NCBI RefSeq assembly: GCF_000372725.1
Contig: NW_005201392.1
Location: 128,521-192,520 of the forward strand
DNA from: Emiliania huxleyi CCMP1516
Lineage: Eukaryota
Direction: 5' to 3'
DNA: 64,000 nucleotides
In this document: positions 17,495 to 59,935 of the stretch, in pieces
Layout of the letters: each line of letters opens with the position of its first letter
Position numbering within the stretch: position 1 is the first letter of the stretch
The notes under the pieces: model-generated
What the model was told of the DNA's origin: nothing
Database searches by the model: none
Seen by the model: only the letters and a program-made list of their open reading frames with translations
Position numbers and translations under genes: made by a program

Positions 17495-18226
17495 CTATGG
17501 GAGGTATGTGTGTATACTGTATTGATCAGCGCCGTGATCACCCCTAGAGCCGTACTCAACGCCTCCAAGCTGCTCGGTCATCACGTCGATGCAGTCCCCG
17601 TCCTCCAGCTCAAGCATTCTCGGGGTTTGGTGCGAGTTCACGCGCTCCCCATCGAACAGGAACCGCAGCGTGCTCCTCGACGAATCACCGATGCCGCGCG
17701 TGTGGCAGTACTGGTCAGTCATCGGGGCAAGACTGTTGTCCATCTCGACGATGTACGCGTCCTCCCGGCCGTCCTGGTCAACTACCTTCACGGCTATGGT
17801 GCAGCCCATGCCGCCGCTGCTAGAGCCCGACGTCGAGAGGTTGAGAATGCGCTTCCGCATCTGCATGCCGCGTCCGACGCCCGGGGGCAGCGAAAGGCTG
17901 CCCCGTGACGCAATCTCCCACGCATCTAGGTGGTCCGTCAAGAAGGAGTGCAGCCCGTGCAGCTTTACGTCGAAGTGTGCGTCCTCGTCGAGCTTCTCCA
18001 GCGACACACAGCCGCTCTCGTCAGCAATGGCATCAAGATCCTCGTCGTAGTGGACGACGGGGTCTCCTTGGACTTTCGCTGCGTCGGCGAGCGGCTTGAG
18101 GTGCTCGAGCTTGCCGCAGCACACGATCCGCGCAGCAATCGGGTCGAAGTGGAAACCCGAAGCGCGGACTAACCCTCGAATCCCGTGTGAGCGGCCGCAC
18201 ATTGCTCGGTACCCCCCCCTGCACAT
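17495..18226 (-). CDS. Intronless ORF with C-terminal SUMO-like (Rad60-SLD) domain
   Basis: IAVKVVDQDG...LRFLFDGERVNSHQTPRMLELEDGDCIDVMTEQLGG, then a 21-aa tail. True start uncertain. Confidence 0.7.
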   Translation of the reverse strand: MCRGGYRAMCGRSHGIRGLVRASGFHFDPIAARIVCCGKLEHLKPLADAAKVQGDPVVHYDEDLDAIADESGCVSLEKLDEDAHFDVKLHGLHSFLTDHLDAWEIASRGSLSLPPGVGRGMQMRKRILNLSTSGSSSGGMGCTIAVKVVDQDGREDAYIVEMDNSLAPMTDQYCHTRGIGDSSRSTLRFLFDGERVNSHQTPRMLELEDGDCIDVMTEQLGGVEYGSRGDHGADQYSIHTYLP

Positions 18227-19939: not shown

Positions 19940-20082
19940 AGGCGGCGGTGGTTTTATTGCGCTACCACGTACCACAGCGCTTGGGCCACATCAGCCCCAG
20001 CGGTCAGATCCGTCTCCTCTGAGCTCTGTCGATCTTGATGTTTAACCCTTTTACGTACACATTTCGAGCGAGTGAAAACCAA

Positions 20083-20407
20083 CTCCTGAGCACGGCGCCG
20101 CAGGCGCCTGTTGATAGGTCCAGGTGATAGCCCTGGATGGGCAATGCATTCGCCTACCTGGGCCTCAGATCGCCCGACCGCGTCCCGGTGCTCTGTGGTC
20201 GGATTTGTGACGCCGCCGCACCGCGCCGCGGCCGGGGGCCCGCCGGAGGACGAGGATGGCCGTGACGGACCGGGACGAGCTCTGGGAGGTTCAGTGTCAG
20301 TGAGTATATTGTAGAGGCCACCCATGTGCACAATATCTTGACTGAGAGCTAAGCCAGGGGAGGCGATGCCGGGGCCGTACAGCAGCTTGATGGTGCTTCG
20401 CCGGCGT
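20083..20407 (+). repeat. Dispersed repeat family D, copy 1 (~325 bp)
   Basis: Highly similar direct copy at 35876-36200. Confidence 0.9.
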
Positions 20408-29265: not shown

Positions 29266-29501
29266 ATAACGCACGGGCCCTCAGCGGAGCTGGGAATAGG
29301 ACCGCCGCAAGCGGCGTGGCGTGGAGCGGTTGCGCATCCCTCCGGGGGCCCCTCTGCGCCGGGGAGGCGTTGTTGGAGGCTAGGACGCAAGCGTCCGTCG
29401 CCCTTTTCAAACTCGGGGCCCACTCCGCTACGCTCCGACCCGAATTTGGAGGGCCTAAAAAGTTTAAGGTGTTGCTGCGCAAAAAGGGGTCGGACACAGG
29501 G
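29266..29501 (+). repeat. Dispersed repeat family A, copy 1 (~235 bp)
   Basis: Direct copy at 46680-46920 and inverted partial copy at 59749-59882. Confidence 0.9.
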
Positions 29502-29658
29502 GGGTGTACCGGTTCTGGCTTGTCAGGGCGCCGTGCGTGGCTGGTCAGAGCAGTCCTGCCTCCCAACGCTCGCCAGACTGCCGCAGCCAAACCCGGTCTC
29601 GCTGAAAAGAAGAAAGTTTGGCCCAACGGAACTGGCGCGCACTGGCACTAACTCTGCC

Positions 29659-30187
29659 CAGAGCGGTGGTTGAGGCCGATTGCCTCAACTGTCAACCAGC
29701 GGGTTGACAGAGGTCTCAACCATCAACCAAGTGGTTGACAGACCCCTTCAACCTTCAACCCCGCGCAAAGGTCTGAACAGTGAACATTCTCTGTGAACAC
29801 TCATGTCGTCTTCTTTAGATGCTGCATTGGACGTGCCGTTTTTACGAGTACTTGCTTCAGCTACACGTGCGTGGATGGGAGAGGTGTGATGCCAAGCCCA
29901 GACGAGGAACGCTCTGACAAGCCATCCGCGAAGGCCCCCGCACGGGAAGTCCGGGCCGACGTCATGGTCGTCCGGACGCGGCCCTCCGTACACGGAAATA
30001 GCTTACCGCAGACATTTCCAAACGCAAAACTGCTTACCAAAGGCAGATACGAGCTCAGCTCAGTGAAATCTAGCAGCACATACCCTCAGACTCAGTATCC
30101 ATAATAGTTAAGTCTGAAAAAGTCGGTCCGACCGCGCAGAGCGGTCTGGCTGTCTGCAGAGGCCAGAGCTTCCGTCCGGGCCCTGAG
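29659..30187 (+). repeat. Dispersed repeat family C, copy 1 (probable transposon end)
   Basis: Inverted copy at 59017-59570. Starts cagagcggtggttga, with clustered gttga/tcaac hairpins. Confidence 0.85.
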
Positions 30188-31339
30188 AAATGTCGGAGGC
30201 ATGTCGGCCCATGTTCGCGATTTTGATGGCGTTGCCCTCATTGCACGTGAAACAGACCGCGCCGGCCACGCACCCTTGTTCCCGGAGGCCAACTCGAACA
30301 GGTTTGAGCAAAGGCCGCCTTCCATGGACCATGCTCGAAATGCAGCAGGAACTTAGTTGACCCTGCTCGAAGGCCGCCCTGCTCTAAGGCCGCCCTCCCT
30401 GCTCTCGGCATTGCGTTGTTGACTGATAGCACTGTCTGATCCATCCAGAAAGAGCCGTCGAGCTACATGAGACCCAAGTCGTCGTGATGTACCAGAAAAC
30501 GAAACTAGCGCCAAAATTGAGATCTCAGGATCGACATTAATTTCTCGCGCCTACTTTCGCTGCTTGAGGCTCGCCAAATAGGTCCTGCGTCTACTCGAGT
30601 ATGGCCGTGTGCAACGTCACTGTCGTTAACTGCGACAAGACCATCGCGACAAGCGCGACTCTGTTGCTTTATGCGGCAGCATTCAACGTGACTCTTGCCG
30701 TGGATGGTTAGTGACCGCGGTTGCTTACGCAATGCTACACCGTGAGCTGAGCTTCACCAGCCGTTTCTCTTCCTTCCCTTGCCTTCTCTTGCCGTCCGTT
30801 CTCTGTGCGCATTCCACTGCATGCGGCATCACACACGCGTCTTCTGCCGGGCGCGCATCTGAACTCGTACCAGGTAGGGCATCGCTTTGCTGAGAGATGT
30901 GTGTATCGCGCGCCTTGCGGGGGGCGCGCGGAAAAGAGGAACCTCTTAGCGCCCTCGCCATGGTGCTGCAAGCAGCGCCGGGCGACGACGACTTACCGCC
31001 TCCCGGTCCCCCTCGGCACACCTCCGCTGCTCAATGTTTGACGACTCGAACCCGTGAAGCTTCCCCGCGCGCGGGTTACCCCGCACACGGGTCAGCCTGC
31101 CAGCCACAAATCCACGCAAGCGTGGTCCGCGCGCATGGCATACAGGCGTCCGCCAGACAGCGCAGAGGCTAGGCGACCGGGGAAGGACTGCTCAAGGGCA
31201 ACACAGCGTCACCAGCCGTTGGCGCGCAGAACGAGTCAGCGGCCCCCGGTTGGGACGAGTGCGCGATCAGGCGCCTCAAAGACAGTTTTTTAGACGCCGT
31301 TCCCCCGGGGCGTGTTGTTCCTGTTGCGAGCAAACTCAG

Positions 31340-33427
31340 ATGTCGCATCGTTGCGAGGAGCGTCGCTGGCGTGTTGAGCAACGGCGCGCCGAGTACGGAC
31401 GCGAAGAGCGGCGATGGCGGGGCGAGCCGCGACGGCGGTCGCGATCGCGCGATGAGCCGCGGCGGGATGAGCTGCGACGGCGCGACGAGCGTTGGCAAGG
31501 GCACCATGATGGGCGGCATGACGAGCGGCGCGGCTACGACGACTCTTGGTGCAGTGGGCGCGAGCAGCGATGGCACGCTGAGCCACACGCCGCCGAGCGA
31601 TGGCGCGACGAGCCATTGCAAGGCGAGCGACGGCCGCATCATGACGGGCGGCACGTTGAGCGGCGCGGCTGCAACGACCGACCAAGCATAGGCGAGCGCG
31701 AGCGCGACTTGTACGATCGGCGCGATGATCGGTTCTACGATCCCAGGCGCGACCATGACCGGCGCGACCGCCGCGGCGAGGGGCAGCCTCAGCACAGCGA
31801 CCGCCGGTTGAGTCCGCCGATGCGTGGTGCGGGATCGCGCGACGAGAGGCACACCTCTGCTGCCGGAGGTCAGCTCGATGCTAAGCAGCTCAGCGGCCGT
31901 ATCTCGCATGCCAGCGGCGCCGACGAGCTGCTCAGGCTCTTTGCTGCCCACAGCGCGAACTTGAACCACATCCACGCTGCGAACCTGTGGAACAAACTGG
32001 GCAAGCAGCGCATCGAGCGGCGGCACGAGGGGCGGCTTGAGCAGCTGGTGCAGCGCACGCTCGACCTGGTTTCTTCGTGCCGAGCACGCGAGCTGGCCAA
32101 CGTGTCTCACGGCGTTGCAAGGTGCGGCTTGCAGGCGAGGGTGGTGCGCCCGTTGTTCGTAGCGGTGGCGGAGGCGGCGGTGCGTGGCGGGCTGGCTGGC
32201 TTCACGCCTCAAGCCCTGGCCAACACGGTGTGGGCGTATGCGACGGCGGGCGTGGCTGCGGACGCGCTGTACGCGGCGGTGGCGGAGGCGGCGGTGCGCG
32301 GCGGGCTGGCTGGCTTCAACCCTCAGAACCTGGCCAACACGGTGTGGGCGTATGCGACGGCGGGCGTGGCTGCGGACGCGCTGTACGCGGCGGTGGCGGA
32401 GGCGGCGGTGCGCGGCGGGCTGGCTGGCTTCAAGCCGCAGGCCCTGGCCAACACGGTGTGGGCGTATGCGACGGCGGGCGTGGCTGCGGACGCGCTGTAC
32501 GCGGCGGTGGCGGAGGCGGCGGTGCGGAGCGGGCTGGCTGGCTTCAACCCTCAGAACCTGGCCAACACGGTGTGGGCGTATGCGACGGCGGGCGTGGCTG
32601 CGGACGCGCTGTCCTCAGATTGGAGCGCGGCGGCAATCAACAACCGCTCTTACCCCGCATGGTGGGCCACCGGGTGGGGCGTAGCAGAGATGCTGGGCGA
32701 GCCCGACGCTGGCGGCGAGTGTTCCGATCGCGGCAGCGCATGGGCGCCTTCCCACAACGGCTCGGCAGCGGAGTGGGTCAGGCTGGAGTTTGGAGATGAG
32801 CCGTTGCGCATGATTGGCTTGCAGGTGCGCGAGGTGCTGGCTGCGCCGTTCATACTCCGCGTCGAGGTTGAGAGCGAGGAGGCGCAGCGTTGGACAATAT
32901 GGAATGGGACAGATGAGACGCCGTGTCCCGGCTGGTTTGACCTCAGCTACGACAGCGGCAGTCAGGCCATTGCCGCGGTCTACATCTTCACCCAGGCCGA
33001 CGGCTTTGAGGAGATTGATGCCGTTTCGTTGGAAGTGCCCATTCCATGCTCGCCCTCGCCGCCGCCCGAGTCACCCTCAACTCCCCTGCCCGCCTTCGCC
33101 GTGCTCACCGCGCGGCCGCTGGCCGTCGTGCTTGCGCTAGTCGCCGCGTGGCTCCTCCTCTTTGCATACCTCTGCCTGCGGGTGCGGCGACGGAGCCGAT
33201 CTGTAGGGCTGCGCGCTGCAAAGGACTTGGAGGGGCCCACACTCCTCTCGCCACCAGGTCCAGCGGCCGAACGACGGGTGGGCGAGCCGGGAAGCCCGAC
33301 GGACGCCCAAACTATAGGCCCCAGCATTGACTTGGACAGCGCCCTCCGTAGTCATGGGTGCGCTCGCCTTGTGCCTCTCGAGAGAGAGAGTCTGAGAGCT
33401 TGCACACATGCAAGGCCACATTTATAG
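31340..33427 (+). CDS. Chimeric ORF: OPR-like repeat protein N-terminus (4 repeats) fused to an extracellular-type galactose-binding-like domain, PSPPP linker and TM helix
   Basis: 31355-32611 is nearly identical to 39435 onward. Abrupt in-frame switch at 32612 to ...SAWAP...EWVRLEF...EEIDAVSL. No RAP domain. Confidence 0.6.
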   Translation: MSHRCEERRWRVEQRRAEYGREERRWRGEPRRRSRSRDEPRRDELRRRDERWQGHHDGRHDERRGYDDSWCSGREQRWHAEPHAAERWRDEPLQGERRPHHDGRHVERRGCNDRPSIGERERDLYDRRDDRFYDPRRDHDRRDRRGEGQPQHSDRRLSPPMRGAGSRDERHTSAAGGQLDAKQLSGRISHASGADELLRLFAAHSANLNHIHAANLWNKLGKQRIERRHEGRLEQLVQRTLDLVSSCRARELANVSHGVARCGLQARVVRPLFVAVAEAAVRGGLAGFTPQALANTVWAYATAGVAADALYAAVAEAAVRGGLAGFNPQNLANTVWAYATAGVAADALYAAVAEAAVRGGLAGFKPQALANTVWAYATAGVAADALYAAVAEAAVRSGLAGFNPQNLANTVWAYATAGVAADALSSDWSAAAINNRSYPAWWATGWGVAEMLGEPDAGGECSDRGSAWAPSHNGSAAEWVRLEFGDEPLRMIGLQVREVLAAPFILRVEVESEEAQRWTIWNGTDETPCPGWFDLSYDSGSQAIAAVYIFTQADGFEEIDAVSLEVPIPCSPSPPPESPSTPLPAFAVLTARPLAVVLALVAAWLLLFAYLCLRVRRRSRSVGLRAAKDLEGPTLLSPPGPAAERRVGEPGSPTDAQTIGPSIDLDSALRSHGCARLVPLERESLRACTHARPHL

Positions 33428-34192
33428 GCGCTCGACCCCCCTGTCGACCCCCCTGTCGGTGCCGCATCAAGCAACGCGGACGTTGCCGTGACGATCTGGA
33501 GTGTCACCTCTACCCTAGAGGCTACGGTACGGTAAAGGGGGAGGGACCCTGAGTTGAACAGGGGTTGTGCGCCAGGCCCTCCTGCTCGGCTCCAGCGAGT
33601 AGACAAGTATTGTCGTCAACAGAGTAGAAGGATCTGACCTCGGGTCCGATGTGACCAAGCGCTGGTAGCGTGGTTTACCTCACACCCATCCACCCATGGC
33701 TCACAGTGGGGTGCCGGCAGTCGCCGAGCAGTGTAGCTCACACAAGCCGCAGCACAAGTGACTGAGGGCCAGTGAGGGCGAGCCCATCGCTGTCACAGCT
33801 GTGGCAGCCGCACAGTGGGCTGTGCCAACTGTGCAGAGCGTGTGAGCAGCACGGAGGAGCTGCTCTCCCCAGGCTCTTCAGGCGCAAAGAGCTGCATGCC
33901 ACCGAAGGCGCTGTCGAGGTTCGCCGAGCGCGGCGCAGGTTCAGGGAAGCCGCCACCGACGAGCGCGATGGACTTTTCACTCCGGACTTGCTCCTTCCGT
34001 CCCCCGTTGGTACTAGTAGGGAAGGGCAAAGTACAGGGTACAGGCCCCCGGCCCCGCGCGGCCGGAGGTGAGTGTCAGAGCGAACATATATGCAACAAAA
34101 CTCCAAAGTCAAAAACAAAATCTCACCAGCTGTCCAAAGCTCCGGAGGGGGAGGCGACCCCGACGCGGGATGCGGACTTACACTGATATATA

Positions 34193-35765: not shown

Positions 35766-35875
35766 CAGCGGGGGCCTCCAATTCGTGTTCGCCACGCTCA
35801 GAGTCCGAGCGTGCGGTACAGCCGCAGTACTGTGCCGTACTCGAGTACCAAAGTCTGTGCAGCTGTGAACAGCAG

Positions 35876-36200
35876 CTCCTGACCACGGCGCCGCAGGCGC
35901 CTGTTGATAGGTCCAGGTGATAGCCCTGGATGGGCAATGCATACGCCTCACTGGGCCTCAGATCGCCCGACCGCGTCCCGGTGCTCTGTGGTCGGATTTG
36001 TGACGCCGCCGCACCGCGCCGCGGCCGGGGGACCTCCGGAGGCCGAGGATGGCCGTGACGGACCGGGACGAGCTCTGGGAGGTTCAGTGTCAGTGTATAT
36101 ATTGTAGAGACTGACCATGTGCACAATATCTCTCAGTCTAGCTAAGCCTGGGAAGGCGATGCCGGGGCCGTACAGCAGCTTGATGGTGCTTCGCCGGCGT
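35876..36200 (+). repeat. Dispersed repeat family D, copy 2
   Basis: Matches 20083-20407. Lies ~110 bp upstream of the deaminase ATG. Confidence 0.9.
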
Positions 36201-39210: not shown

Positions 39211-39419
39211 AAAGTGGGCCGCGGACACCTCGTAAATAAAATAATTTGAAACGTCGTCGAGCGCGAAAGTAGACAAACAAAGTAGTGAGGGAACAGCCTC
39301 GGGAAGGAGCTACGGTTAAATTGCTGTAACCGTGAACAGACGCCGAAGTTGACCAACATCCGCGGTTGAGGCCTCGTCGGCGTACCCGGGTTCAGTACAC
39401 TATCTCGCTCGTGTCACAT

Positions 39420-42020
39420 ATGTCCTACCTAGGTGAGGAGCGTCGCTGGCGTGTTGAGCAACGGCGCGCCGAGTACGGACGCGAAGAGCGATGGCGGGGC
39501 GAGCCGCGACGGCGGTCGCGATCGCGCGATGAGCCGCGGCGGGATGAGCTGCGACGGCGCAACGAGCGTTGGCAAGGCGAGCCGCACCATGACGGGCGGC
39601 ATGACGAGCGGCGCGGCTACAACGCCTCTTGGTGCAGTGGCCGCGAGCAGCGATGGCACGCTGAGCCACACGCCGCTGAGCGATGGCGCGACGAGCCATT
39701 GCGAGGCGAGCGATGGCCGCATCATGACGGGCGGCACGTTGAGCGGCGCGGCTGCAACGACCGACCAAGCATAGGCGAGCGCGAGCGCGACTTGTACGAT
39801 CGGCGCGATGATCGGTCCCACGATCCCAGGCGCGACCATGACCGGCGCGACCGCCGCGGCGAGGGGCAGCCTCAGCACAGCGACCGCCGGTTGAGTCCGC
39901 CGATGCGTGGTGCGGGATCGCGCGACGAGAGGCACACCTCTGCTGCCGGAGGTCAGCTCGATGCTAAGCAGCTCAGCGGCCGTATCTCGCATGCCAGCGG
40001 CGCCGACGAGCTGCTCAGGCTCTTTGCTGCCCACAGCGCGAGCTTGAACCACATCCACGCTGCGAACCTGTGGAACAAACTGGGCAAGCAGCGCATCGAG
40101 CGGCGGCACGAGGGGCGGCTTGAGCAGCTGGTGCAGCGCACGCTCGACCTGGTTTCTTCGTGCCGAGCACGCGAGCTGGCCAACGTGTCTCACGGCGTTG
40201 CAAGGTGCGGCCTGCAGGCGAGGGTGGTGCACCCGTTGTTCGTAGCGGTGGCGGAGGCGGCGGTGCGGAGCGGGCTGGCTGGCTTCACCCCTCAGGCCCT
40301 GGCCAACACGGTGTGGGCGTATGCGACGGCGGGCGTGGCTGCGGACGCGCTGTACGCGGCGGTGGCGGAGGCGGCGGTGCGCGGCGGGCTGGCTGGCTTC
40401 ACCCCTCAGAACCTGGCCAACACGGTGTGGGCGTATGCGACGGCGGGCGTGGCTGCGGACGCGCTGTACGCGGCGGTGGCGGAGGCGGCGGTGCGCGGCG
40501 GGCTGGCTGGCTTCAACCCTCAGAACCTGGCCAACACGGTGTGGGCGTATGCGACGGCGGGCGTGGCTGCGGACGCGCTGTACGCGGCGGTGGCGGAGGA
40601 GGTGGTGCGCGGCGGGCTGGCTGGCTTCAACCCTCAGGCCCTGTCCAACACGGTGTGGGCGTATGCGACGGCGGGCGTGGCTGCGGACACGCTGTACGCG
40701 GCGGTGGCGGAGGAGGCGGTGCGGAGCGGGCTGGCTGGCTTCAAGCCTCAGGACCTGGCCAACACGGTGTGGGCGTATGCGACGGCGGGCGTGGCTGCGG
40801 ACGCGCTGTACGCGGCGGTGGCGGAGGTGGCGGTGCGCGGCGGGCTGGCTGGCTTCAACCCTCAGAACCTGGCCAACACGGTGTGGGCGTATGCGACGGC
40901 GGGCGTGGCTGCGGACGCGCTGTACGCGGCGGTAGCGGAGGCGGCGGTGCGCGGCGGGCTGGCTGGCTTCAAGCCGCAGGAGCTGGCCAACACGGTGTGG
41001 GCGTATGCGACGGCGGGCGTGGCTGCGGACGCGCTGTACGCGGCGGTGGCGGAGGCGGCGGTGCGCGGCGGGCTGGCTGGCTTCAAGCCGCAGGAGCTGG
41101 CCAACACGGTGTGGGCGTATGCGACGGCGGGCGTGGCTGCGGACGCGCTGTACGCGGCGGTGGCGGAGGTGGCGGTGCGCGGCGGGCTGGCTGGCTTCAA
41201 CCCTCAGAACCTGTCCAACACGGTGTGGGCGTATGCGACGGCGGGCGTGGCTGCGGACGCGCTGTACGCGGCGGTGGCGGAGGCGGCGGTGCGCGGCGGG
41301 CTGGCTGGCTTCAAGCCGCAGGAGCTGGCCAACACGGTGTGGGCGTATGCGACGGCGGGCGTGGCTGCGGACGCGCTGTACGCGGCGGTGGCGGAGGTGG
41401 CGGTGCGCGGCGGGCTGGCTGGCTTCAAGCCGCAGGCCCTGGCCAACACGGTGTGGGCGTATGCGACGGCCGACTATTATCACCAGGCGCTGCTTGCCGA
41501 CTGCTCGCGCGTGATCAGCGACTCGCTCGCGCGGGATCCGTCGAGGTGGAGCGAGGAAGCCCGCTCTCAGCTGCACCAGTGGCAGCTCTGGCTCTCCCTG
41601 GAGCGAGGAGCAGACGGGCAGCAGCACCTCCTCTCCGAGTCCCAGCGCAAGCTCTGCTGCGACGCCATGCAAGGCACCGAAGTTACGATCTCGCGCTTAC
41701 AGCGCTCCGTCGCGGCTGCCCTCGCCGCCGTCCAGCACGGCTTCGAGGAGGAGCACCTCGAGCCGCGCACCGGCTACTCGCTCGACCTGGCGCTGCCCTC
41801 TTCACGCGTCGCTGTCGAGGTGGACGGCCCCTCTCACTTCCTGCTGCCCGACGGCCGGGGCGTGCGCAAACCCAATGGGCCAACGCTGCTCAAGCGGCGC
41901 CTCCTCAGGGCGGCTGGCTGGAGGGTGATCAGCGTTCCATTCTACGAGTGGGACGGCTTCGCGACAGCCAATGGGCAGCAAACCTACCTGGAGAGGGCGG
42001 TCGCCCCGCTGTTGGGCTAG
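39420..42020 (+). CDS. Intronless OPR-like (38-aa repeat) RNA-binding protein with C-terminal RAP domain
   Basis: 11 near-identical 114-bp repeats GLAGFxPQxLxNTVWAYATAGVAADALYAAVAEAAVRG plus one degenerate repeat. RAP motif YSLDLA...VAVEVDGPSHF...TLLKRRLL...GWRVISVPFYEW. Confidence 0.9.
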   Translation: MSYLGEERRWRVEQRRAEYGREERWRGEPRRRSRSRDEPRRDELRRRNERWQGEPHHDGRHDERRGYNASWCSGREQRWHAEPHAAERWRDEPLRGERWPHHDGRHVERRGCNDRPSIGERERDLYDRRDDRSHDPRRDHDRRDRRGEGQPQHSDRRLSPPMRGAGSRDERHTSAAGGQLDAKQLSGRISHASGADELLRLFAAHSASLNHIHAANLWNKLGKQRIERRHEGRLEQLVQRTLDLVSSCRARELANVSHGVARCGLQARVVHPLFVAVAEAAVRSGLAGFTPQALANTVWAYATAGVAADALYAAVAEAAVRGGLAGFTPQNLANTVWAYATAGVAADALYAAVAEAAVRGGLAGFNPQNLANTVWAYATAGVAADALYAAVAEEVVRGGLAGFNPQALSNTVWAYATAGVAADTLYAAVAEEAVRSGLAGFKPQDLANTVWAYATAGVAADALYAAVAEVAVRGGLAGFNPQNLANTVWAYATAGVAADALYAAVAEAAVRGGLAGFKPQELANTVWAYATAGVAADALYAAVAEAAVRGGLAGFKPQELANTVWAYATAGVAADALYAAVAEVAVRGGLAGFNPQNLSNTVWAYATAGVAADALYAAVAEAAVRGGLAGFKPQELANTVWAYATAGVAADALYAAVAEVAVRGGLAGFKPQALANTVWAYATADYYHQALLADCSRVISDSLARDPSRWSEEARSQLHQWQLWLSLERGADGQQHLLSESQRKLCCDAMQGTEVTISRLQRSVAAALAAVQHGFEEEHLEPRTGYSLDLALPSSRVAVEVDGPSHFLLPDGRGVRKPNGPTLLKRRLLRAAGWRVISVPFYEWDGFATANGQQTYLERAVAPLLG

Positions 42021-43007
42021 TACGGTGCACACTGACTGTTCTCAATAGGGGCGGCTCCCGTGGTGTACCTTTGTGCTCCTCGTGCCTGTGAGCTGTGTTA
42101 GTGGCGGCTGGCGCGCGCCAGAAAAAAGAGAATTTTACGCGCAAACACGCGCCTCCCCCCCTCGGCCTCCCTCCCTCCTCCCCCCTCGTGCGGTGTGCTG
42201 ACCGCGAGTGCCTCGTCTCGCCCTTAGGGAGGGAGGTGTCTCGGAAGCTTAGAGGCAGGAGCGCAGCGGAGGCGCGGGCGGCGGGCGGGGGCGGCAGGGA
42301 GGCGGCGGCATACGGCGCGACTGCGCAGCACCCAGAGACGCCCTTCCCGCCGCCGCCCCCGTCGTCGCGAGCGTCGCGCAGTCGCCGATCGCGCCGACGC
42401 GAACGCCGGCGCCGACGCCGCGCCGGCGCGGCTCGCGCGCGCTCAAGGCGCTGTCCGACCACAACCCGCACGAGGCGGCCGCGCCGCCGCCGGCCGCCTC
42501 GCGGCGCGGCCGCGGCGGAGGGAGTCGTCGGCGGGCGTCCACGTCTACCGCTCGGCGGCCGCGCCGGCGGCGGAGGGATGGGGGAGGAGGACTGTTCATC
42601 CCACGCGGCTGGTGGCACCAGGTGCGTGCGAGCGCGGGCAGCGTCGCCATGTCGATCCCGGAGAGTCGTGAGAGGCGCGCGGTAGCGGGTCGCTCGGTAT
42701 CCAAAAAGTCCTCCATGAACATTCTAGAGCGAACATACACAACACACTACATACAGGCGTGCTGCGTGACGTGATCGTGGCCGACTCTCACCCAGCCTCA
42801 CTCACAACTCTCACGTACTAGCAAGTGCACGACAGAGACTAGATAGGTTAGGTAGAAAGGTGAAGAACAGCCAGGCTGTGGACACCAACGCGGTACGAGG
42901 GCCAAGACTTTCTTCTTTTCACGTTGTGCGAGGGAAGTTTCGTAAAAGTGTCACTCCAGATCCATAAAATGTCGCATTTGCTGCGCGTTTTCTTGTAAAT
43001 CGAGCCT

Positions 43008-45238: not shown

Positions 45239-46604
45239 TCAAAGCTTCTGCGCCGCATTCCGCATGTTGAAGCTCGCCTCCAGCGCCCCCATGTCCTCGA
45301 CGAGGATCTGCGGGCCGGTGCGCTCGACCTCGAGATCCTTGGAGAGAGTGATGTGGTCGTTGTGCGCATCTGCGAGAGCAAGGGGGCGGTGCGCGCTCGT
45401 AAGCGCAGGGAAAGCCTGCAAACAGCGCAAGAGGCATGCGCACCCTTCACCATCCCGTCGCACGTCGCGGCGATGCCCTGGCAGTACTGGAAGAGCGGCA
45501 GCACGTCAAACGGCTCCTCCACCTGCACGCCAATGTCCTCGGTGCCAAGCCTGCGCGACAGAGGTGCGGCCTCATGCACGGTAAGGCAGGGCCGACCCGG
45601 GCGCGGCTCACATGGCCCATGCCACGAACGTCGCCGCCAGCGGCGTCGCAGTGCCGACGATTGGCCAGAGCACAAACGGCATCGCGTTGCACCTGATGCA
45701 ATCGTGAGATCGGCTGCATCCCCTGGAACGAGTCGAGCTCGGACATGGGCGTGCGTGGCGCGCACCAGACCATCAGGAAGCGCGAACAGTGCCGCGTGAA
45801 GGCGGTGGGGATGGGCGTGCGGTGGATGCGCTCGCAGGCGCCCATCGCGCCGCAGAGGCGCTGGAAGTGCCGCTCGAGGAGCTGCCCGATGAATGTCCAT
45901 ACCAGCCCGGACAGAAAGACCAGGGGCGAGAAGGCAACGCGAGAGCTCGGTTCGTCGCCATCTACGCGATCCGGCGCCCACGTCGCCCAGATGTCACCCG
46001 GCAGACCGCACGTCTGCTGGATGTACGTCATTGCGAGCGTGATCACCATTGCCGCAGCCATTGGGACGGCGCCAGTCTCCTCGAGCGAGAGAGCAAGCCA
46101 CTTGCTTCGGCCGCTGCTCGCCCAACTGTGACTGATAAACGCGTCGATGTGCTCCACCGTCGCTGATTTCGCGTGCAGTTTCGCCCTCTCCTCTTCAGTC
46201 AGGCGGTCTGGATTAGTGTGAAAGGCAGACCGCCATCGAACCAAGGCATCGCTCACCCGCAATCCTCGCCGTACCGAGCGGGGAGGGCGCAGCGCGGCAC
46301 TGGCAGCGATGAACTGCGAGATGGCGATAGTCTGTGCCACTCCCGACTTCAAGTCGGACGCGGCGGAGGACCTTGAATGCACGTCAGAATGGCGGGGAGA
46401 GTCAATGAACTGCGAGATGGCGCTGGTCTGTGCCACTCCTTCGGAAGCGGCCGACCTTGAATGCACGTCAGAATGGCGGTGGGACTCGCAGCCGGCGGAA
46501 GGCATGTGCTCGAGTAGCCTTTGCTTGATCCGCGTCCTTGTAGGCGGGCAACTTGGACGTTCCGGACAGGCAAAATACAGGCGTCTTCTTCGCTGTTTGT
46601 TCAC
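45239..46604 (-). CDS. Chimeric gene: DAFISHSW-type membrane protein N-terminus joined to the C-terminal half of a bestrophin-like (YneE/VCCN1/BST) channel
   Basis: HIDAFISHSW...KWLAL plus two TM segments, then GACERIHRTPIPTAFTRHCSRFLMVW. Spliced exons give LGTEDIGVQVEEPFDVLPL; stop at 45239. Confidence 0.7.
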
Positions 46605-46679
46605 AGCACGCCACTAGGAAACCTACGGTTCCCTGGGATCGCCTCGTGAATAAACGAGTATATTATAGCGGTGGGCAAA

Positions 46680-46920
46680 ATAACGCACGGGCCCTCAGCG
46701 GAGCTGGGAAGAGGACCGCCGCAAGCGGCGTGGAGTGGGTCAGTTGTGCATCCCTCCGGGGGCCCCTCTGCGCCGGGGAGGCGTTGTTGGAGGCTAGGAC
46801 GCAAGCGTCCGTCGCCCTTTTCAAACTCGGGGCCCACTCCGCACGTACGCTCCGACCCGAATTTGGAGGGCCTAAAAGTTTAAGGTGTTGCTGCGCAAAA
46901 GGGGTCGGTCGGACACAGGG
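46680..46920 (+). repeat. Dispersed repeat family A, copy 2
   Basis: Matches 29266-29501. Confidence 0.9.
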
Positions 46921-49275: not shown

Positions 49276-52200
49276 TCACCACTCCGTCTCGACAAAGTCT
49301 TTGAGAAAGACGCCATGGAGAGGCGTCTCGCCCGTGCTGACGCCCTCAAAGACCGGATGCAGGACGCGCGCTGCCGCGTCCACCTCGTCCAGCGGCGTCT
49401 GGAAGTGACTCGTCTCGGCGGTCCTCGCTGCGCGCTCGCGAGGGTTCTCGTCGTTGATCCAGCCGGTATCGACCGCCGTCATGTAGATGCGGTGACTGGC
49501 GGCCAGCTCCGCTGCCGAGGTTCGCGTCATCATGTTGAGCGCCGCCTTGGCCATGTTCGTGTGCGGGTGGTTGGCCGTCTTGTGACGATAAAACTTGCCC
49601 TCCATCGCAGACACGTTGACGATGAAGGCGGCGCCCGCCGCGTCGGCCGCCGCAGCGAGCAGTGGCTGCAGCCGCGCGTTGATGATGAAGGGCGCGAGCG
49701 TGTTGATGGCGAGCACCTCGCAGAGCTCCGGCGTCGACACGTCGGGGAGCTTGAGCCGCCAGGAGTTGGTGGCGCGCAAGTCAATCTGCTGCCCATTCAC
49801 GTCCAGCTGTCCGGCGGGCAGCACCGCCCCTCCTTGCTCGCCGCTGCCGAGAGGCGACACCGCCGTCGCGGCGTCTTCAGTCGTGAGGTGCAGCTGCGAC
49901 AGCTGCGCGGGTGTCGGGGTCGGTGGATCGTGGTCGTCCCGCCCCTCGTCCGTCCAGCGTATGGCGCTGCCCCTCGCCTGGCGCCTCCCCTCTCGCCGGC
50001 TCGCCTGCTGCGCAAGGAGTGGTGCGAGGGGCGCGCCAGCCTGGCCCGCCTCGACCTCGGCCTCAAACGCGAGCAGATGCGCGTAGTAGCTCGCCGGCCG
50101 CCGGATCGTCTGGCACGCGTTGTTGACGACAACGTCGAGCCGCGGGAGCGTCGCGCGCAGATAGTCACAAAAGCTCTCCAGCGCCACGACGTCCCTCAGG
50201 TCGAGCGCGTGGACGTGCAGTCGCTCGCGCCACGCCTCGAAGTCCGCCTCGGCGGCGTAGCGCTTCGCGGCGTCGGCGGGAAAGCGAGTGGTCGCCACCA
50301 CCGTGGCGCCGGCTCGTAGCAGCTTGAGCGCGATCTCGAAGCCCACCTTGACGCGGCTGCCCGTGAGGAGCGCATAACGGCCACTCAGGTCGGCGGTGCA
50401 GTGGCGCATCCGATAGTTGAGCGAGGCGCACTTGGGGCAGAGCTGCGCGTAGAAATGGTGCAGCGCCCCGAAGCGCGCCTTGCAGCTGTAGCACTGCCGC
50501 GGCTTGAACAACTCCGGCCCGTTCGTCGCGACTGCGCCGTCGGCGTCGCTGCCGGCTGCTGCCTCAACTCCACTCACCAGAGACCGGCCCTCCTCGCGCA
50601 CCGCGCCGTCCGGAACCTGGCACAGCAAGCGACGGCAACCGATGCCGCCGTCATCACCATCGCCGCTCACGCCAAGAGCGAGCAGCCGTCCCGGCTCCTC
50701 ACAGAGCCCCCGTAGCCGCTCGATGCGGCCACGGCGCAGCCCCGTGGTGTCCAAATGCCGCCGGTCCGCGTCGGCCTGGCGCGCCCTCCGGCTCTCGTCC
50801 TCCTTGCGCAATGCACGACGTCGCCCGTTCTCCAGAGCGGCGGCGTCGCGCTCACTCATCGCCGCATGCACCGGGCCAAAGGCCTTGCGCAGCCGCCGGA
50901 ACCGCGGCCCTGCCAAGAGCCGCGACGGGTCCTTTGAGAGCCGTTCGAGGACCGAGACGCAAGCGTCGAGATCGCCGTCCGAGATGTTGACGTCCGAATC
51001 CTCGTCCGGCGAATCCTTGCTGGTCGCTTGGCTGGGCGGGGCATCGTCGGCGCTGGGGGTGGACGACTCCCCGCTCCTCGCAACAGCCGCTGCGCTTGCA
51101 CCCGCCACAGCGCGTGGCGCACCCGATGCAACCCTCTCCTTCCCGCAGCCCTGGCCGTGCCCCTGCGGGGCAACCTCATCGGCCGTGTATCGACAGGGGC
51201 TTGCGCGGTCTAGACGCGAGAGGCAGGCGGAGACTGCTTCTCGCACCTTGCGCCGCGCCGCCTGGGCGTCCCTTGCGGCGGGCGAGGAGAAAAGCGCCCT
51301 CACCCGCGCCTCCAGCCCAACCGCGGCGGACGCCGCCTCCCCGGAGGCGAGGAGCGCTCCGAGAAACGTTGCAAATAGCCAGAGACAGGAGCGAGCGAGG
51401 GCACCCGGGCTCGCGGGCTGCCCAAGCAAAGCCTCGCCGTCTCCACCGCCGTCGACGCGGCGGCGGCCGGCGTCTGCCACCGGCGCCGCCTCAGCAAAGG
51501 TGCGCTCCACCGCAGCGAGCGCAGCGACGTGCGCACCGCAAGACACGGCAGCGATGGCGGTGGCCGATGCCTCACCAGGCGCCTCGTCAGCCTTGGACGA
51601 GCAATCAGCGGCGTAGCACAGCAGCGTGAGCGAAGCCTCCACCGCCGCCACATCCGTCGCGTGCGCCTGCAGCACCGCTACAGCTCGCTCGAGAGCCCGC
51701 TCGGCGATGCATGCCGCCAGATTCCGCGGGTGGTGCTTGAGTAGAAAAGCGACGGCCTTGCACCCAGCCTCGTGCGCCCTCGCCGACGCGCAATGCACGG
51801 CGAGGCCCTGCAGCAAGACCGAGGCGCCGCCAGCTGCCCCAATCGCATCCTGCATCGGCACGGACCGCACAACGAGATTCCGGAGCGCGTGTGCCCCCCA
51901 CCGGTAAAACTTCGCGGCACGGTCGCACCGGCAATCGCTCGCTGCGAGCCGCGCGCGCATAGCGGCCACCACAACCGCTGCGCCGTGAGGACCGACGGCA
52001 GCCTTGACGTCGTCAACGTCCCAGCCGTAGCAGAGGTTTCCGAGGGCGCGGCTCGCCTAGGACACGCGGACACCAGGGTGGCGCGTGTGCCACCCTCTCC
52101 CCCCCGAGACTAAGACACGCGAGCCTGGACGCACAGCTCCTCCACTGCCCTCTCTGCCCCCTCGCCGGCGCGTGCGCGTCGCCGGCCGACCACGAACGCC

Positions 52201-54642
52201 TCATGCTGCTCCACGGCGGCGAGGAGCGCCTCCACGCCACTGAGGGAGAGGGCGGCAGCCTTGTTGGCGCCGGCGCCGGCCACCAAATCGGCTAGTGCCG
52301 CGGCGGCGTCGGCCCCCATGCGGAGCGCCTCGAGGCCGGCCGCGTCACAGAAACTTGCCTCCGGGCCCAGCCGCGCGGCGGCGATCGCGTGGACGGAGAC
52401 GCGCACGCCAGAGCGACCAAAGGCGACGGCGGCCGCGTGGCTGCTCTCCAGGCGCGCCGCCTCGGCGCGGAGGAGGCGCAGCGAGTGGCCCCTGACCGCC
52501 CGCACCGGCCCGGAGGCCTCGTCGCCGCCACTGGCCGCGTCGATGGTCGGCAGCCACACCGTGGCGAGGAGAGCCGAGGCGTCGCCGGGGCAAGGAGGCT
52601 CGCGGCCACAGCTCGGCCGCAGGAGCCGGGTGAGCGCGCCGCACGCCTCGTTTGCCACCGCGGCCAAACCACCGGCCGCGGCCACGGCCCTTGGCACGCC
52701 GCCGCTGCCGACCTCCAACACGGCGCAGAAACGGGTGGCGCTCGCCGCGTCCGTCAGCAGTACGAGGCCGGGCCGAGCAATCGCCTCCGAGAGCGGGACG
52801 ACGGCGAAGCGAATAGCCCCCGGTACGCGCCGCCGAGCAGCGAGCGCGTAGTGCGACATGGTCGTGCGCGCGTTGACCTCGAGCAGCCGCACAGCCAGCG
52901 CGCCGCCGGGAGCGCGCACGATCGCGCAATCCACGCCGCACGTGCGCGAGCCGCACGTCGCGGGCACGTCTAGCGGATCGAGCGCTGCCTCGACGGCGCG
53001 CCGGCGGAACACAAACTCGAAGAGCTCCTCCTCAAGCGGCGCAGCCGGGCGCGGCTCCTGGTCGAGCAGCGTCGCCGACCAGCGCATGTGCGGCGCCTCG
53101 AAGCGCGACACGCCGCAGAGCTCCCCATCAATCCACTCGGCGCTGTACCTACGAGCGGCAGAAGAGGCGGAGCCGTGCGAAGAGGCGGCCTCGACACGGC
53201 GCGGCGCGGAGCGCGGAGGCAGCGCACTCGGCGAGGAGGTCGAGGACCGGCTCGACGGTCACCACTCCATCGCGGCGGAGGGCGGCGCGCGCCCATCGCT
53301 CGCCCGCACCGCCAGGGGCCAGAGACGCGGCATCGCACACGCGCACCCCCATGCCGGAGCACGACCACTCGCGCTTGAGGACAGCGCGACCGCCGCACGC
53401 CACGGCCGCCGCCCGCACCTCCTCCACAGACCGGCATACCGACACGTCAGCTCGGTAGCGCGCCACGTTGGAGCGGCGCAAGTGCGGACCGGCGACGGCG
53501 TACGGCCGCTGGCCGGCGATCGCGCGGCCGGCGGGTGGTGCGGGCGCGAAGGTGGGCAGGTCGCGCACGCCGGCGGCCGCGAGCGAGCTGAGGAAAGCGG
53601 GCCGCTGCTCTGGCGCAACGACGATGTCTGTGGGGCGGGCGAGCAGCCACGGCAGGGCGGCGAGGTCGGCGCGGAGGGCGAGCCAGCTCTTGGAGAGCGT
53701 GCGTCCCGCCGCCTCCTCCTCGACACCGGCGTTGAAGCTGTGCACCCAGGCCGGAGGCTGGGGCGGCGGCGGCTGGGGAGGAGGTGGCTGCGGAGGCGGC
53801 CGAGGCGGCGACTGGGAAGGAGGTGGCTGGGAAGGCGGCTGAGGCGGGGAGGGCGGCAGAGAGGGACAGAGAGGCGAGAGCAGCCTGCGGTGCCACGCGA
53901 CGAGCAACTCGAGGGCGGGGCCGAGGCAATGGCCGCCGCGATGGAGCACCGACTCGCGTGCGGCGGCACCGAACGCAGCGGCGAGTTCCTCGCTTGCGGC
54001 GGGGTCGACAAGCCGGTCGCATGAGCCGGAGACGTGTAGGGAGGCGAGCCCGCCAAGGCGGGCGCCTGACGGCTCGGCGGAGGCGGAGGAGGGGGGGAAG
54101 GATAAGGAGTGGTCGGAGGTGGCCGTCGGGGCTGCTCTCACGACGCCGTCCTCGTGCAGGTAGCCGCCGAAGGGGTAGCCCGAGACCAGGGCGACGTGCC
54201 GCAGGTCGGGAAGCGGGCCCTCGTCGCGCCGGAGCGAGCAGGCCAGGTGAGCCAGAGCGGCGCCCTGGCTGAAGCCGACGATGCCCGCGAAGCCAGAGCC
54301 GTGCGCCGCGCGCTCGGCAGCGTCGGCGGCGCAGATGACGCGCAGCGAGTCGGCCACGCCCTGGAGGACTCGCGCCCCGCCGCTACCGCGAGCGACAGTC
54401 CACCACGCTCTGGGCGACTCTGGCGGCGAAGGCACAACACCCGCAAGCGGACGTGCCTCGACGGTGAGCGGGCCGTCGAGGAACGTGAAGCGAACGTCGC
54501 CGCTGAGAGCTTCGCGGGCTCTTCGCATCTGATGAGCCATCGTCGAAGCACTCATGCCGAAGCCGTGCAGGCACACGACCGAGAGAGGCCGCGATGGATT
54601 GCTCGCACCAGTAGCGGAAAGGCACTCGCGTTGCTGCGACAT
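49276..54642 (-). CDS. Multidomain enzyme: FSH1-type serine hydrolase, ATP-grasp-like domain, ARM repeats, Zn-finger/SDR oxidoreductase (~1739 aa)
   Basis: Exons 54642-53228, 53148-52125, 52056-49276 join three ORFs in phase (GT-AG and GC-AG introns). Motifs: CLHGF, GFSQGAA, HRGGH; VLKREWSCSGMG, GVD...LEVNARTTM; CYSC...HHFY...CPKC, LTGSRVKVG, NNACQT, NVSAMEG, HPHTNMAK. Confidence 0.8.
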
Positions 54643-54934
54643 TGGAGCTGGTCGCTCACTCCTGCGCGCGCCGCGCGCGCGCGCGTCGCGCGCGTGGATG
54701 TGATGCAAAAAAAAATCCATGTATGGCTTTGTTTTATGACATCGTTTGAACGCATGGCTTTCAAACGGCATTTTGCTCGCGTCGGCGCCGCCGAGCGCTG
54801 CTCGGAGAGTATACTCTTTGACCTCCTACGACCGGTGTGCTACTACTCGCTTCTTCTAAGCGGGAGGTTACCAACTACGGCGTACCCGCCTAATTCTGTT
54901 ATCCTTCACCGCGACGCAGAGCGGCGACGTCATT

Positions 54935-59016: not shown

Positions 59017-59935
59017 CTCAAGGCCCGGACGGAAGCTCTGGCCTCTGCAGACAGCCAGACCGCTCTGCGCGGTCGGACCGACTTTTTCAGACTTAACTAT
59101 TCTGGATACTGAGGGTATGTGCTGCTAGATCTCACTGAGCTGAGCTCGTATCTGCCTTTGGTAAGCAGTTTTGAGTTCGGTAATGTCTGCGGTAAGCTGT
59201 TTCCGTGTACAGAGGGCCGCGTCCGGACGACCATGACGTCGGCCGGGACCCCCCCGGTGGCGGGGCATTCGAGATGACTTGTCAGCGCTCCTCGTCTGGG
59301 CTTGGCATCACACCTCTCCCATCCACGCACGTGTACGTGTAGCTGAAGCAAGTACTCGTGAAAAAGGCGCGTCAAATGCAGCATCTAAAGAAGACGACAT
59401 GAATTCACAGAGAATGTTCACTGTTCAGAAGTCTTTGCGCGGTGTGTGTGTGAGCAGCCATTCCGCGTGGTTGAAGGTTGAAGGGGTCTGTCAACCACTT
59501 GGTTGATGGTTGAGACCTCTGTCAACCCGCTGGTTGACAGTTGAGGCAATCGGCCTCAACCACCGCTCTGAGTAGATTGTAGAGATTTCACGTTGTAGAG
59601 CGCCTCTACATCGCTCTACAACGCACGCAGTTCGTCACGCGGCGGATGTAGCTCTACAGCTCTACAGCGCTCTACAGCGCTCTCCAGCGCTCTACACCTC
59701 TACAGCTCTACAGCGCTCTACACTCTACATCCTCTACACCCTCCCTCGAAAGGGCGACGGACGCTTGCGTCCTAGCCTCCAACAACGCCTCCCCGGCGCA
59801 GAGGGGCCCCCGGAGGGATGCACAACCGACCCACGCCACGCCGCTTGCGGCGGTCCTCTTCCCAGCTCCGCTGGGCCCGTGCACTTGGAGCACTTGGAGT
59901 GCAGTCGGTAACCGCACATCCAGGGCCGGGGAGCT
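59017..59935 (-). repeat. Composite repeat cluster: inverted family C (59017-59570), (ctctaca)n element end (59575-59745), inverted A (59749-59882), inverted B 3' end (59881-59935)
   Basis: Direct comparison with the other copies in the window. Confidence 0.85.

What the first reader, a model, noticed from the sequence alone, without database searches (positions are those of the whole stretch)
40270..41470. TALE-like code: near-identical 114-bp OPR repeats vary mainly at two residues
Seen: the F-x-PQ-y-L pairs read T/A, T/N, N/N, N/A, K/D, N/N, K/E, K/E, N/N, K/E, K/A while the rest of the repeat is almost invariant. The paralogue reads T/A, N/N, K/A, N/N, a different order from the same alphabet. 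The N-terminus is R/E/D/H-rich rather than transit-peptide-like. Inference: a recombination-shuffled RNA-recognition code coupled to a RAP nuclease, a natural scaffold for deriving the OPR code and for engineering.
Basis: partly seen in the sequence, partly recalled or inferred. Interest (0 to 1): 0.8.

Follow-up and report, generated by a model that had tools for sequence, protein, structure and literature searches.

The report
Algal repeat nuclease with two-residue code
An alga gene encodes eleven almost identical protein repeats that differ mainly at two positions, the same two that vary in hundreds of relatives, followed by a predicted nuclease, so it is likely a naturally reprogrammed RNA cutter and would be a clean tool for cracking an unsolved RNA-recognition code.

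Summary
An intronless 866-aa ORF (39420-42020, +; most likely Emiliania huxleyi) has an R/E/D-rich N-terminus, eleven 38-aa OPR/HPR repeats (96% identical in DNA) and a RAP domain that keeps the family's conserved D/E/D/H/K residues. The F-x-PQ-y-L pairs read as stated. Nonsynonymous diversity at these two codons is 0.41, against 0.02 in the rest of the repeat. In 119 homologues, and in 113 more distant ones, x and y are among the least homogenised positions and the most strongly coupled pair of the gap-free core. They use a shared alphabet (KE, ND, NN, NE, NA, TA). In 7 of 10 colinear pairs of relatives, 69-88% of x/y residues differ against 19-33% elsewhere; two pairs keep the series. A helix-capping explanation fails. 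Corrections: position 30 also varies; the paralogue is truncated and lacks RAP; the two-residue pattern is family-wide, and diatom relatives diversify without array shuffling. RNA binding, the code, cleavage and location are untested. Closest known: Chlamydomonas NCL/NCC OPR-RAP proteins. Verdict: new variant of a known kind, and an excellent scaffold for the unsolved OPR/HPR code.

The parts
39420..42020 (+). Intronless ORF, 866 aa, OPR/HPR-RAP protein
   Evidence: contigs from RNA libraries cover pieces from 39445 to 42087
39420..39956 (+). R/E/D/H-rich low-complexity N-terminus; no acid-free transit-peptide character; one basic cluster at residues 29-34
   Evidence: indels against the paralogue are 3 and 6 nt; 5 of 6 indels in RNA-run contigs are multiples of 3
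39957..40160 (+). Conserved helical cap before the repeats
   Evidence: helices at model residues 2-67; conserved in E. huxleyi, Phaeocystis and other relatives
40161..40283 (+). Degenerate lead repeat (41 aa, pair R/E)
40284..41468 (+). Ten full 114-bp (38-aa) repeats plus a half repeat; pairs TA TN NN NA KD NN KE KE NN KE KA; x is the residue just before helix A, y the third residue of helix A in the model
41469..41690 (+). Helical linker between the array and the nuclease fold
   Evidence: the span lies inside the structural match to FASTKD4 9GEK (model 364-686, Z 23.6)
41691..42017 (+). RAP / Vsr-like nuclease-fold domain with D789, E800, D802, H806, K825
   Evidence: PF08373; structural match to I-Bth0305I 3R3P, Z 11.5, rmsd 3.0, 93 residues; each residue is kept in 80-81 of 83 aligned sequences; coordinates
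31340..32611 (+). Paralogue: 5' part 98% identical in DNA (833 of 848 bases); lead repeat plus units TA NN KA NN, the last one truncated
32612..33427 (+). Unrelated in-frame tail fused to the paralogue (discoidin/PAPP-A-like lead only, Pro-rich linker, hydrophobic segment); no RAP
   Evidence: no Pfam hit; Atlas leads at 0.76-0.79; same fusion in EMIHUDRAFT_200384, P0172; tail almost uncovered and junction not bridged in 4 runs

Best explanation
This gene encodes an OPR/HPR-RAP protein whose eleven near-identical repeats differ mainly at two coupled residues, which likely each specify one base of a single-stranded RNA, so that the predicted RAP nuclease would cut a chosen transcript, likely outside the organelles. 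Shown: the anatomy; the hypervariable, coupled x/y pair with an alphabet shared across distant lineages; a multi-copy family in E. huxleyi; exchange between repeats; retained conserved RAP residues. Predicted: a helical solenoid followed by a Vsr-like fold. Inferred: one repeat per nucleotide (about 11-12 nt); RNA as substrate; cleavage; nucleo-cytosolic location. Gene conversion likely homogenises the scaffold while selection keeps different x/y cassettes, so that duplicated genes gain new targets in a birth-and-death family.
For: piN at codons 2 and 5 is 0.41; in the other 36 codons piN is 0.021 and piS 0.028 (10 units). The same piN (0.41) holds in 23 distinct related units from metagenome loci, against piS 0.20 and piN 0.09 elsewhere. 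In 1176 units of 119 homologues, positions 2 and 5 have the highest within-protein difference (0.75, 0.78) and the highest within/total ratio (0.91, 0.95). They are also the top pair by excess mutual information (0.254 bits, z 19). Replicated in 1157 units of 113 cluster representatives, found without scoring positions 2 and 5: 2-5 is second of 351 pairs and first inside the gap-free core. Of 10 colinear pairs, 7 differ at 69-88% of x/y residues against 19-33% elsewhere, one at 29% against 10%, and two keep the series (0% and 6%, against 10-11%). Pooled, x/y differ in 99 of 166 cases against 67 of 166 for the next two positions, p 0.0006. The capping-box pairs S/T/D/N-x-x-E are depleted (108 observed, 184 expected) while K-E is enriched 2.9-fold. 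The model (pLDDT 95.9) matches mL115, RESC6, Toxoplasma mitoribosome chains, FASTKD4 and I-Bth0305I. OPR proteins hold single-stranded RNA in their inner groove (PMC8660880, passages). Single substitutions in NCC1/NCC2 OPR-RAP proteins redirect RNA destabilisation (PMC8635915 and PMC5449608, passages). Purified FASTKD5 cleaves RNA (10.1101/2024.07.18.603998, passages). 21 E. huxleyi gene models are close relatives; 15 of them form a clade with this protein (SH-aLRT 98, quick tree).
Against: No target, binding or cleavage was tested. I had no coordinates, so I could not show that x/y face the groove. The best structural match is a Polytomella ATP-synthase chain (6RD4_2, Z 31.7), so the fold does not imply RNA binding. 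In the solved mitoribosomal OPRs the RNA contact is mainly charge to backbone (PMC8660880). FASTKD4 has the same fold and was judged inactive (PMC11879112). The nearest nuclease structure is a DNA endonuclease. Units are not independent (shared ancestry). In the replication set, positions 19, 22 and -2 are as variable within proteins (0.78-0.82), position 11 (nearly invariant) has a similar ratio, and pair 23-24 has higher excess MI; positions after 17 are not in register because unit lengths differ. Many close copies are fragmentary or frameshifted. Location rests on composition only.
Confidence: 0.55

Rival explanations
1. The same two-residue code reads DNA in the nucleus, making the protein a natural TALEN-like endonuclease.
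For: The RAP fold matches the homing endonuclease I-Bth0305I and Vsr (PMC11879112). There is no transit peptide and there is a basic cluster at residues 29-34. RAP-like ORFs of 255-310 aa without repeats occur in viral contigs.
Against: The characterised OPR/HPR/FASTK relatives in the papers read act on RNA. [quoted passage not shown] Relatives carry RRM or zinc-knuckle domains. Many relatives with the same alphabet have acid-free, targeting-peptide-like N-termini (48 of 120 tree rows).
Confidence: 0.12
2. It is a sequence-specific RNA binder, but organellar (NCL-like, from another start or a hidden exon) or catalytically inactive like FASTKD4.
For: Characterised OPR-RAP proteins are organellar. 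Several E. huxleyi gene models start at a downstream ATG. FASTKD4 is inactive with the same fold.
Against: RNA-run contigs cover the acidic N-terminal region from 39445, and none covers 39222-39332. The N-terminal indels keep the frame. The downstream start gives only a short, charged leader. His806 lies 17 residues after Asp789, similar to Vsr D51/H69, whereas FASTKD4 has Asn at the Vsr His position. This equivalence is inferred from spacing, not from a residue-level alignment.
Confidence: 0.15
3. The variable pair recognises a protein or peptide ligand (immune-receptor-like repeats), or only tunes helix capping and solenoid geometry.
For: x is the N-cap and y the third residue of helix A. 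K and E could form a salt bridge. The top structural hit is an ATP-synthase subunit.
Against: Capping-box pairs are depleted (N-E 63 against 100 expected, T-E 12/27, S-E 10/24, D-E 3/21; 108 against 184). A purely structural role would not make x/y the most divergent positions between close relatives. The same small polar alphabet recurs across distant lineages.
Confidence: 0.1
4. It is neutral tandem-repeat turnover in a decaying multi-copy family, or a mis-assembled array, and the x/y pattern is incidental.
For: Within the window alone the concentration is borderline (p 0.055). Many copies are broken. The paralogue is a truncated chimera. No read or contig spans the array, so the exact order is unverified.
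Against: Nine of 10 units are distinct in DNA. The ORF and RAP residues are intact. piN at x/y is about 15 times piS elsewhere. Other assemblies hold long arrays with the same scaffold and other orders (L016, 9 units; P0123, P0129). The pattern is family-wide.
Confidence: 0.08

Closest known systems
Chlamydomonas NCL/NCC1/NCC2 OPR-RAP subfamily (seen through PMC8635915, PMC5449608 and PMC13126933 passages; the primary paper Boulouis 2015 was not held)
   Same: 7-12 OPR repeats plus C-terminal RAP; duplicated paralogues; single repeat substitutions give new RNA targets that are destabilised.
   Different: NCC1/NCC2 act on chloroplast transcripts, and OPR motifs are described as highly degenerate. 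Here the repeats are 96% identical in DNA, variation is nearly confined to two residues, and the N-terminus is acidic/basic low-complexity. That NCL genes are under diversifying selection, and that a draft code uses comparable positions near the start of helix A, is recalled and not checked.
FASTK/FASTKD family, RESC6, mL115, apicomplexan HPR-RAP proteins
   Same: Helical repeats plus RAP with a Vsr-like fold; FASTKD5 cleaves RNA in vitro.
   Different: These are degenerate mitochondrial proteins with no known code (PMC12691811 states the HPR code is uncharacterised); FASTKD4 appears inactive.
Paulinella chromatophora OPR-RAP expansion (PMC7729196, passages)
   Same: Variable N-terminus, conserved region, 2-13 repeats of 38 aa, second conserved region, RAP; large family.
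   Different: Mostly organelle-targeted with a degenerate motif; the passages read report no two-residue hypervariability.
TAL effectors, PPR code and PRDM9 zinc-finger arrays (analogies; TALE and PRDM9 features recalled)
   Same: Homogenised repeats with a few hypervariable specificity residues; the PPR code also uses two main residues per repeat.
   Different: No homology to TALE or PRDM9 was found in Pfam or PDB searches. The x/y residues are three apart at the start of a helix, not adjacent in a loop. PPR10 is only a weak structural match (TM about 0.29).

Membership tests
OPR/HPR helical-repeat proteins | Tandem 37-40-aa two-helix repeats forming a solenoid | tested here: met
   38-aa period; two helices per unit, pLDDT 95.9; Z 30.5 to mL115; FAST_1 and DUF1601 above cut-off
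OPR/HPR helical-repeat proteins | Chlamydomonas-type PPPEW motif | tested here: not met
   Absent from all units. The motif is also absent from HPRs and about a quarter of OPR motifs, and HPRs are treated as part of the OPR family.
OPR/HPR helical-repeat proteins | Binds single-stranded RNA | not testable with these tools
   Inferred from relatives only
RAP-domain proteins | C-terminal RAP domain with the acidic-x-acidic-GPxHF motif | tested here: met
   PF08373 E 1.3e-14; motif as defined in PMC8190603 section 15 is present at residues 800-807
Active Vsr-like / PD-(D/E)xK nucleases | Fold and catalytic Asp/Glu/His/Lys retained | tested here: inconclusive
   Fold matches 3R3P (Z 11.5); D, E, D, H and K are kept in 80-81 of 83 sequences; equivalence to Vsr catalytic residues is inferred from spacing; activity untested
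NCL (NCC-like) subfamily | Chloroplast targeting | tested here: not met
   N-terminus 23% D+E and 27% R; compositional test only, no targeting predictor was available
NCL (NCC-like) subfamily | Phylogenetic membership of the Chlamydomonas NCL clade | not tested
   No NCL sequence was among the named hits or in the tree; the protein groups with E. huxleyi models
TAL effectors | 34-aa TAL repeats with adjacent variable residues 12-13 (recalled) | tested here: not met
   38-aa repeats; no TAL hit in Pfam or PDB; the resemblance is in logic only

The most novel reading that the evidence does not exclude
Coccolithophores carry a repertoire of nucleo-cytosolic, guide-free programmable nucleases. Each is a homogenised OPR array with a two-residue-per-base code fused to an active RAP nuclease, re-targeted quickly by gene conversion and duplication as an anti-virus or anti-transposon defence. 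The same code would be shared across algae, protists and some bacteria.
Probability: 0.2. Interest if true: 0.92.

Novelty: new variant of a known kind. Interest (0 to 1): 0.72.

Why it matters
The OPR/HPR recognition code is still open: a December 2025 review says the HPR code is uncharacterised, and natural repeats are highly degenerate. Here nature supplies a near-constant 38-aa scaffold, two candidate code positions and a ranked natural alphabet (KE, ND, NN, NE, NA, NG, TA and others), already fused to a candidate nuclease. That makes the code directly testable with a few designer arrays. If it holds, targets could be predicted for algal, apicomplexan and FASTK-type proteins, and a compact single-chain programmable RNase would be available. 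A fast-diversifying, apparently non-organellar family in a bloom-forming alga also points to an unrecognised conflict or defence role.

Tried and rejected
No genome is held for the window, so paralogues could not be counted directly; public gene models were used, and these skip the arrays. Helix capping as the sole cause was rejected. A viral origin or viral copies of the array were not found: the best 80 of 303 viral loci matched only the RAP region, and none of 79 ORFs extracted from them hit a repeat HMM. A second viral scan for the repeat did not run, so absence is not shown. Single-sequence folding of the C-terminal 183 aa failed (pLDDT 45) and was not used. A sequence search of RAP alone against PDB gave nothing significant. 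The wide structural search did not run. The array order could not be confirmed, because all eight lays were short contigs. The paralogue's fused tail had no cover in three of four runs and one bin in the fourth, with no bridging contig; this is not proof of absence. Retrocopy origin is not favoured: there is no poly(A) after the stop codon, and L002 shares upstream sequence with 39233-39345. The script crashed after codon 10 of its last table; only values printed before that are used. The tree is the quick version; the careful one did not finish. Earlier scan findings: none returned. Nine literature searches found no paper on near-identical OPR arrays or on haptophyte OPR-RAP genes. The library lacks most subscription papers and theses; Boulouis 2015 and the RESC structure paper were not held. 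No supplements were read.
Full report
Observation. The window is GC-rich eukaryotic DNA. An ORF open from 39336 has its first ATG at 39420 and ends at 42020, giving 866 aa. TRF reports a 114-bp array at 40245-41470 with 10.8 copies and 95% matches, and a four-copy array at 32162-32612. Cut at the conserved Phe, the gene has a degenerate lead unit (40161) and eleven units from 40284 in exact 114-bp steps. Their F-x-PQ-y-L pairs are TA TN NN NA KD NN KE KE NN KE KA; the paralogue reads TA NN KA NN. Of 38 positions, 31 are invariant over 13 full units. Positions 2 and 5 are the most variable, position 30 (A/E/V) is third, and four others have rare variants. The ten full units are 95.8% identical in DNA and nine are distinct. 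Nonsynonymous diversity is 0.41 at codons 2 and 5, against 0.021 nonsynonymous and 0.028 synonymous in the other 36 codons. All four allele combinations occur between codons 2 and 5, which indicates exchange between units or recurrent mutation. On the window's data alone the concentration at two codons is borderline (p 0.055 after post-hoc choice), so I tested it in relatives.

What it is. Pfam gives RAP (E 1.6e-13), FAST_1 and DUF1601. PDB sequence hits are RESC6 and mL115. An alignment-based model of residues from 39960 has pLDDT 95.9, two helices per repeat and an alpha/beta C-terminal domain; x is the residue just before helix A and y its third residue. Structural matches are a Polytomella ATP-synthase chain (Z 31.7), mL115 (30.5), Toxoplasma mitoribosome chains, RESC6 and FASTKD4 (23.6). 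The last 109 residues match the homing endonuclease I-Bth0305I (Z 11.5, rmsd 3.0 over 93 residues). D789, E800, D802, H806 and K825 are each kept in 80-81 of 83 aligned sequences. The N-terminal 175 aa are 27% Arg, 13% Glu and 10% Asp. Indels against the paralogue are 3 and 6 nt. Contigs from RNA libraries cover pieces from 39445 to 42087 with no cover at 39222-39332, and 5 of their 6 indels are multiples of three. This fits a transcribed intronless gene with the charged N-terminus, but contigs cannot prove transcription of this copy.

Organism and family. The closest named relatives are 21 Emiliania huxleyi CCMP1516 gene models (1, 20; some may be alleles). The 20 read and the one lack the repeat array, so the family is hidden in the annotation. 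In a quick tree of 120 RAP regions, the protein lies in a clade with the 15 E. huxleyi models included (SH-aLRT 98). Twenty-one marine metagenome loci carry the repeat; many are close relatives, one with nine units in another order (L016), and several are truncated or frameshifted. The paralogue is 98% identical over its 5' part, stops in unit 4 and runs in frame into an unrelated tail, with no RAP. The same fusion is in EMIHUDRAFT_200384, which may not be independent of this assembly; no contig of four other runs bridged it. Wider searches gave 567 proteins at E up to 1e-10 among 7998 candidates scored, from haptophytes, diatoms, pelagophytes, Plasmodiophora and green algae, and 962 clusters at 50% identity at E up to 1e-30.

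Test of the code idea. I used the best 120 hits and dropped the two window proteins and the first unit of each protein, leaving 1176 units in 119 proteins. Positions 2 and 5 had the highest within-protein difference and the highest within/total ratio of 30 positions. They were the top pair by mutual information above a within-protein shuffle (0.254 bits, z 19). The commonest pairs were KE 16%, ND 9%, NN 6%, NE 5% and NA 5%. I repeated this on 113 of 119 new cluster representatives (those with at least five units; 1157 units), with positions 2 and 5 excluded from repeat detection. The 2-5 pair ranked second of 351; the first, 23-24, lies beyond the part that stays in register when unit lengths differ. 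Some linker positions were as variable within proteins. The classical capping box is avoided (108 observed, 184 expected) and K-E is enriched 2.9-fold, so helix capping does not explain the pairs. Among disjoint pairs with the same unit number and spacing and at least 65% C-terminal identity (10 pairs), seven differ at 69-88% of x/y residues against 19-33% elsewhere, one at 29% against 10%, and two keep the series (0 of 16 and 1 of 16) while differing at 10-11% elsewhere. Fast change between likely paralogues and conservation between likely orthologues is what specificity residues show; orthology was not established independently. In a diatom-like group of seven 10-unit proteins the repeats keep position-specific features, so x/y changed in place rather than by moving whole repeats. 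ORFs on contigs of bacterial MAGs (Chlamydiae, Bdellovibrionota and others) use ND, NN, KE, NG and NE too (124 units); their bacterial origin was not verified. Units are related by descent, so the z values overstate independence.

Mechanism. Most likely each repeat reads one base of single-stranded RNA through x/y, and RAP cuts nearby. Basis from papers, all read as passages unless stated: OPR proteins hold single-stranded rRNA in their inner groove, mostly by charge (PMC8660880). Single substitutions in NCC1/NCC2 create new targets that are destabilised (PMC8635915; PMC5449608). Purified FASTKD5 cleaves its substrates (10.1101/2024.07.18.603998). FASTKD4 has a Vsr-like site with Asn in place of Vsr His69 and appears inactive (PMC11879112); this protein has His 17 residues after the conserved Asp, an equivalence I infer from spacing. 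RAP motifs are from PMC8190603 (passages and section 15). The acidic, mixed-charge N-terminus argues against organelle import; that such regions are typical of nuclear RNA-processing proteins is recalled. Some relatives carry RRM or zinc-knuckle domains, and acidic N-termini recur in several clades (15 of 120 rows, 8 changes on the tree). The target, and a defence role, are inference.

Comparison and novelty. It is a member of the OPR/HPR-RAP family and works like the NCL proteins, but fails their chloroplast-targeting feature on composition. It is not a TALE. Also consulted as passages: PMC13126933, PMC7729196, PMC6212722, PMC12691811, PMC9576764, PMC11652630 and 10.64898/2026.01.22.701003. 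Nine searches found no description of homogenised OPR arrays, of a two-residue alphabet, or of this haptophyte family. However, the primary NCL paper and the thesis on the OPR code could not be read, and I recall that a draft code there uses positions near the start of helix A, so the positions themselves may be anticipated. No supplements were read. What appears new is the near-invariant natural scaffold, the cross-lineage alphabet with paralogue-specific diversification, and the apparently non-organellar expansion.

Verdict. The code, substrate, activity and location are untested. Interest 0.72; new variant of a known kind; best explanation 0.55.

Noticed in passing
P0144, P0157-P0230 (E. 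huxleyi CCMP1516 models), P0091: Public gene models of this family skip the repeat array, and some use a wrong N-terminal frame, so the family is annotated only as short 'RAP domain-containing' proteins. Three models lie on a contig of the same length (548,430), suggesting a cluster.
   Followed up: partly
P0087, P0088, P0095, P0108, P0110, P0111, P0114: A diatom-like group of 10-repeat paralogues with colinear repeats and different x/y series. Four of them (P0088, P0095, P0108, P0110), all with a longest contig of 22,884 bases, suggest a tandem cluster; two have targeting-peptide-like N-termini. A good set for code inference.
   Followed up: partly
window 40284-41423, repeat position 30: A third variable codon (A/E/V, piN 0.32) in helix B of the repeat; role unknown.
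   Followed up: no
L102-L117: Contigs of bacterial MAGs (Chlamydiae, Bdellovibrionota, Chlorobiaceae, Zetaproteobacteria labels) encode similar repeat arrays, some with RAP. L102 and L103 share the same 13-pair series. Contamination was not excluded.
   Followed up: partly
L022-L101: Viral contigs encode 255-310-aa ORFs with a basic helical N-terminus and a RAP/Vsr-like C-terminus but no OPR repeats. They resemble phage homing endonucleases (label recalled).
   Followed up: partly
window 30842-31266 and 33504-33987: High-depth sequence in DNA and RNA runs flanks the truncated paralogue on both sides, suggesting dispersed repeats.
   Followed up: no
window 29653-30187 and 59017-59576; 29266-29501, 46680-46920, 59749-59882; 20072-20407 and 35865-36200: Dispersed repeats at 87-97% identity, some inverted.
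   Followed up: no
window 10786-14799 (+): Long ORF with 258-bp repeats and eight Ephrin_rec_like matches plus a weak beta-helix hit.
   Followed up: no
window 49279-52056 (-), 53152-54825 (-), 45450-46613 (-), 17498-18226 (-): Ordinary genes: short-chain dehydrogenase, FSH1 serine hydrolase, bestrophin, SUMO/ubiquitin-like.
   Followed up: no
P0244, P0243, P0289: Distant relatives with 16-18 fairly homogeneous units; P0244 also has an R/D/E-rich N-terminus.
   Followed up: no
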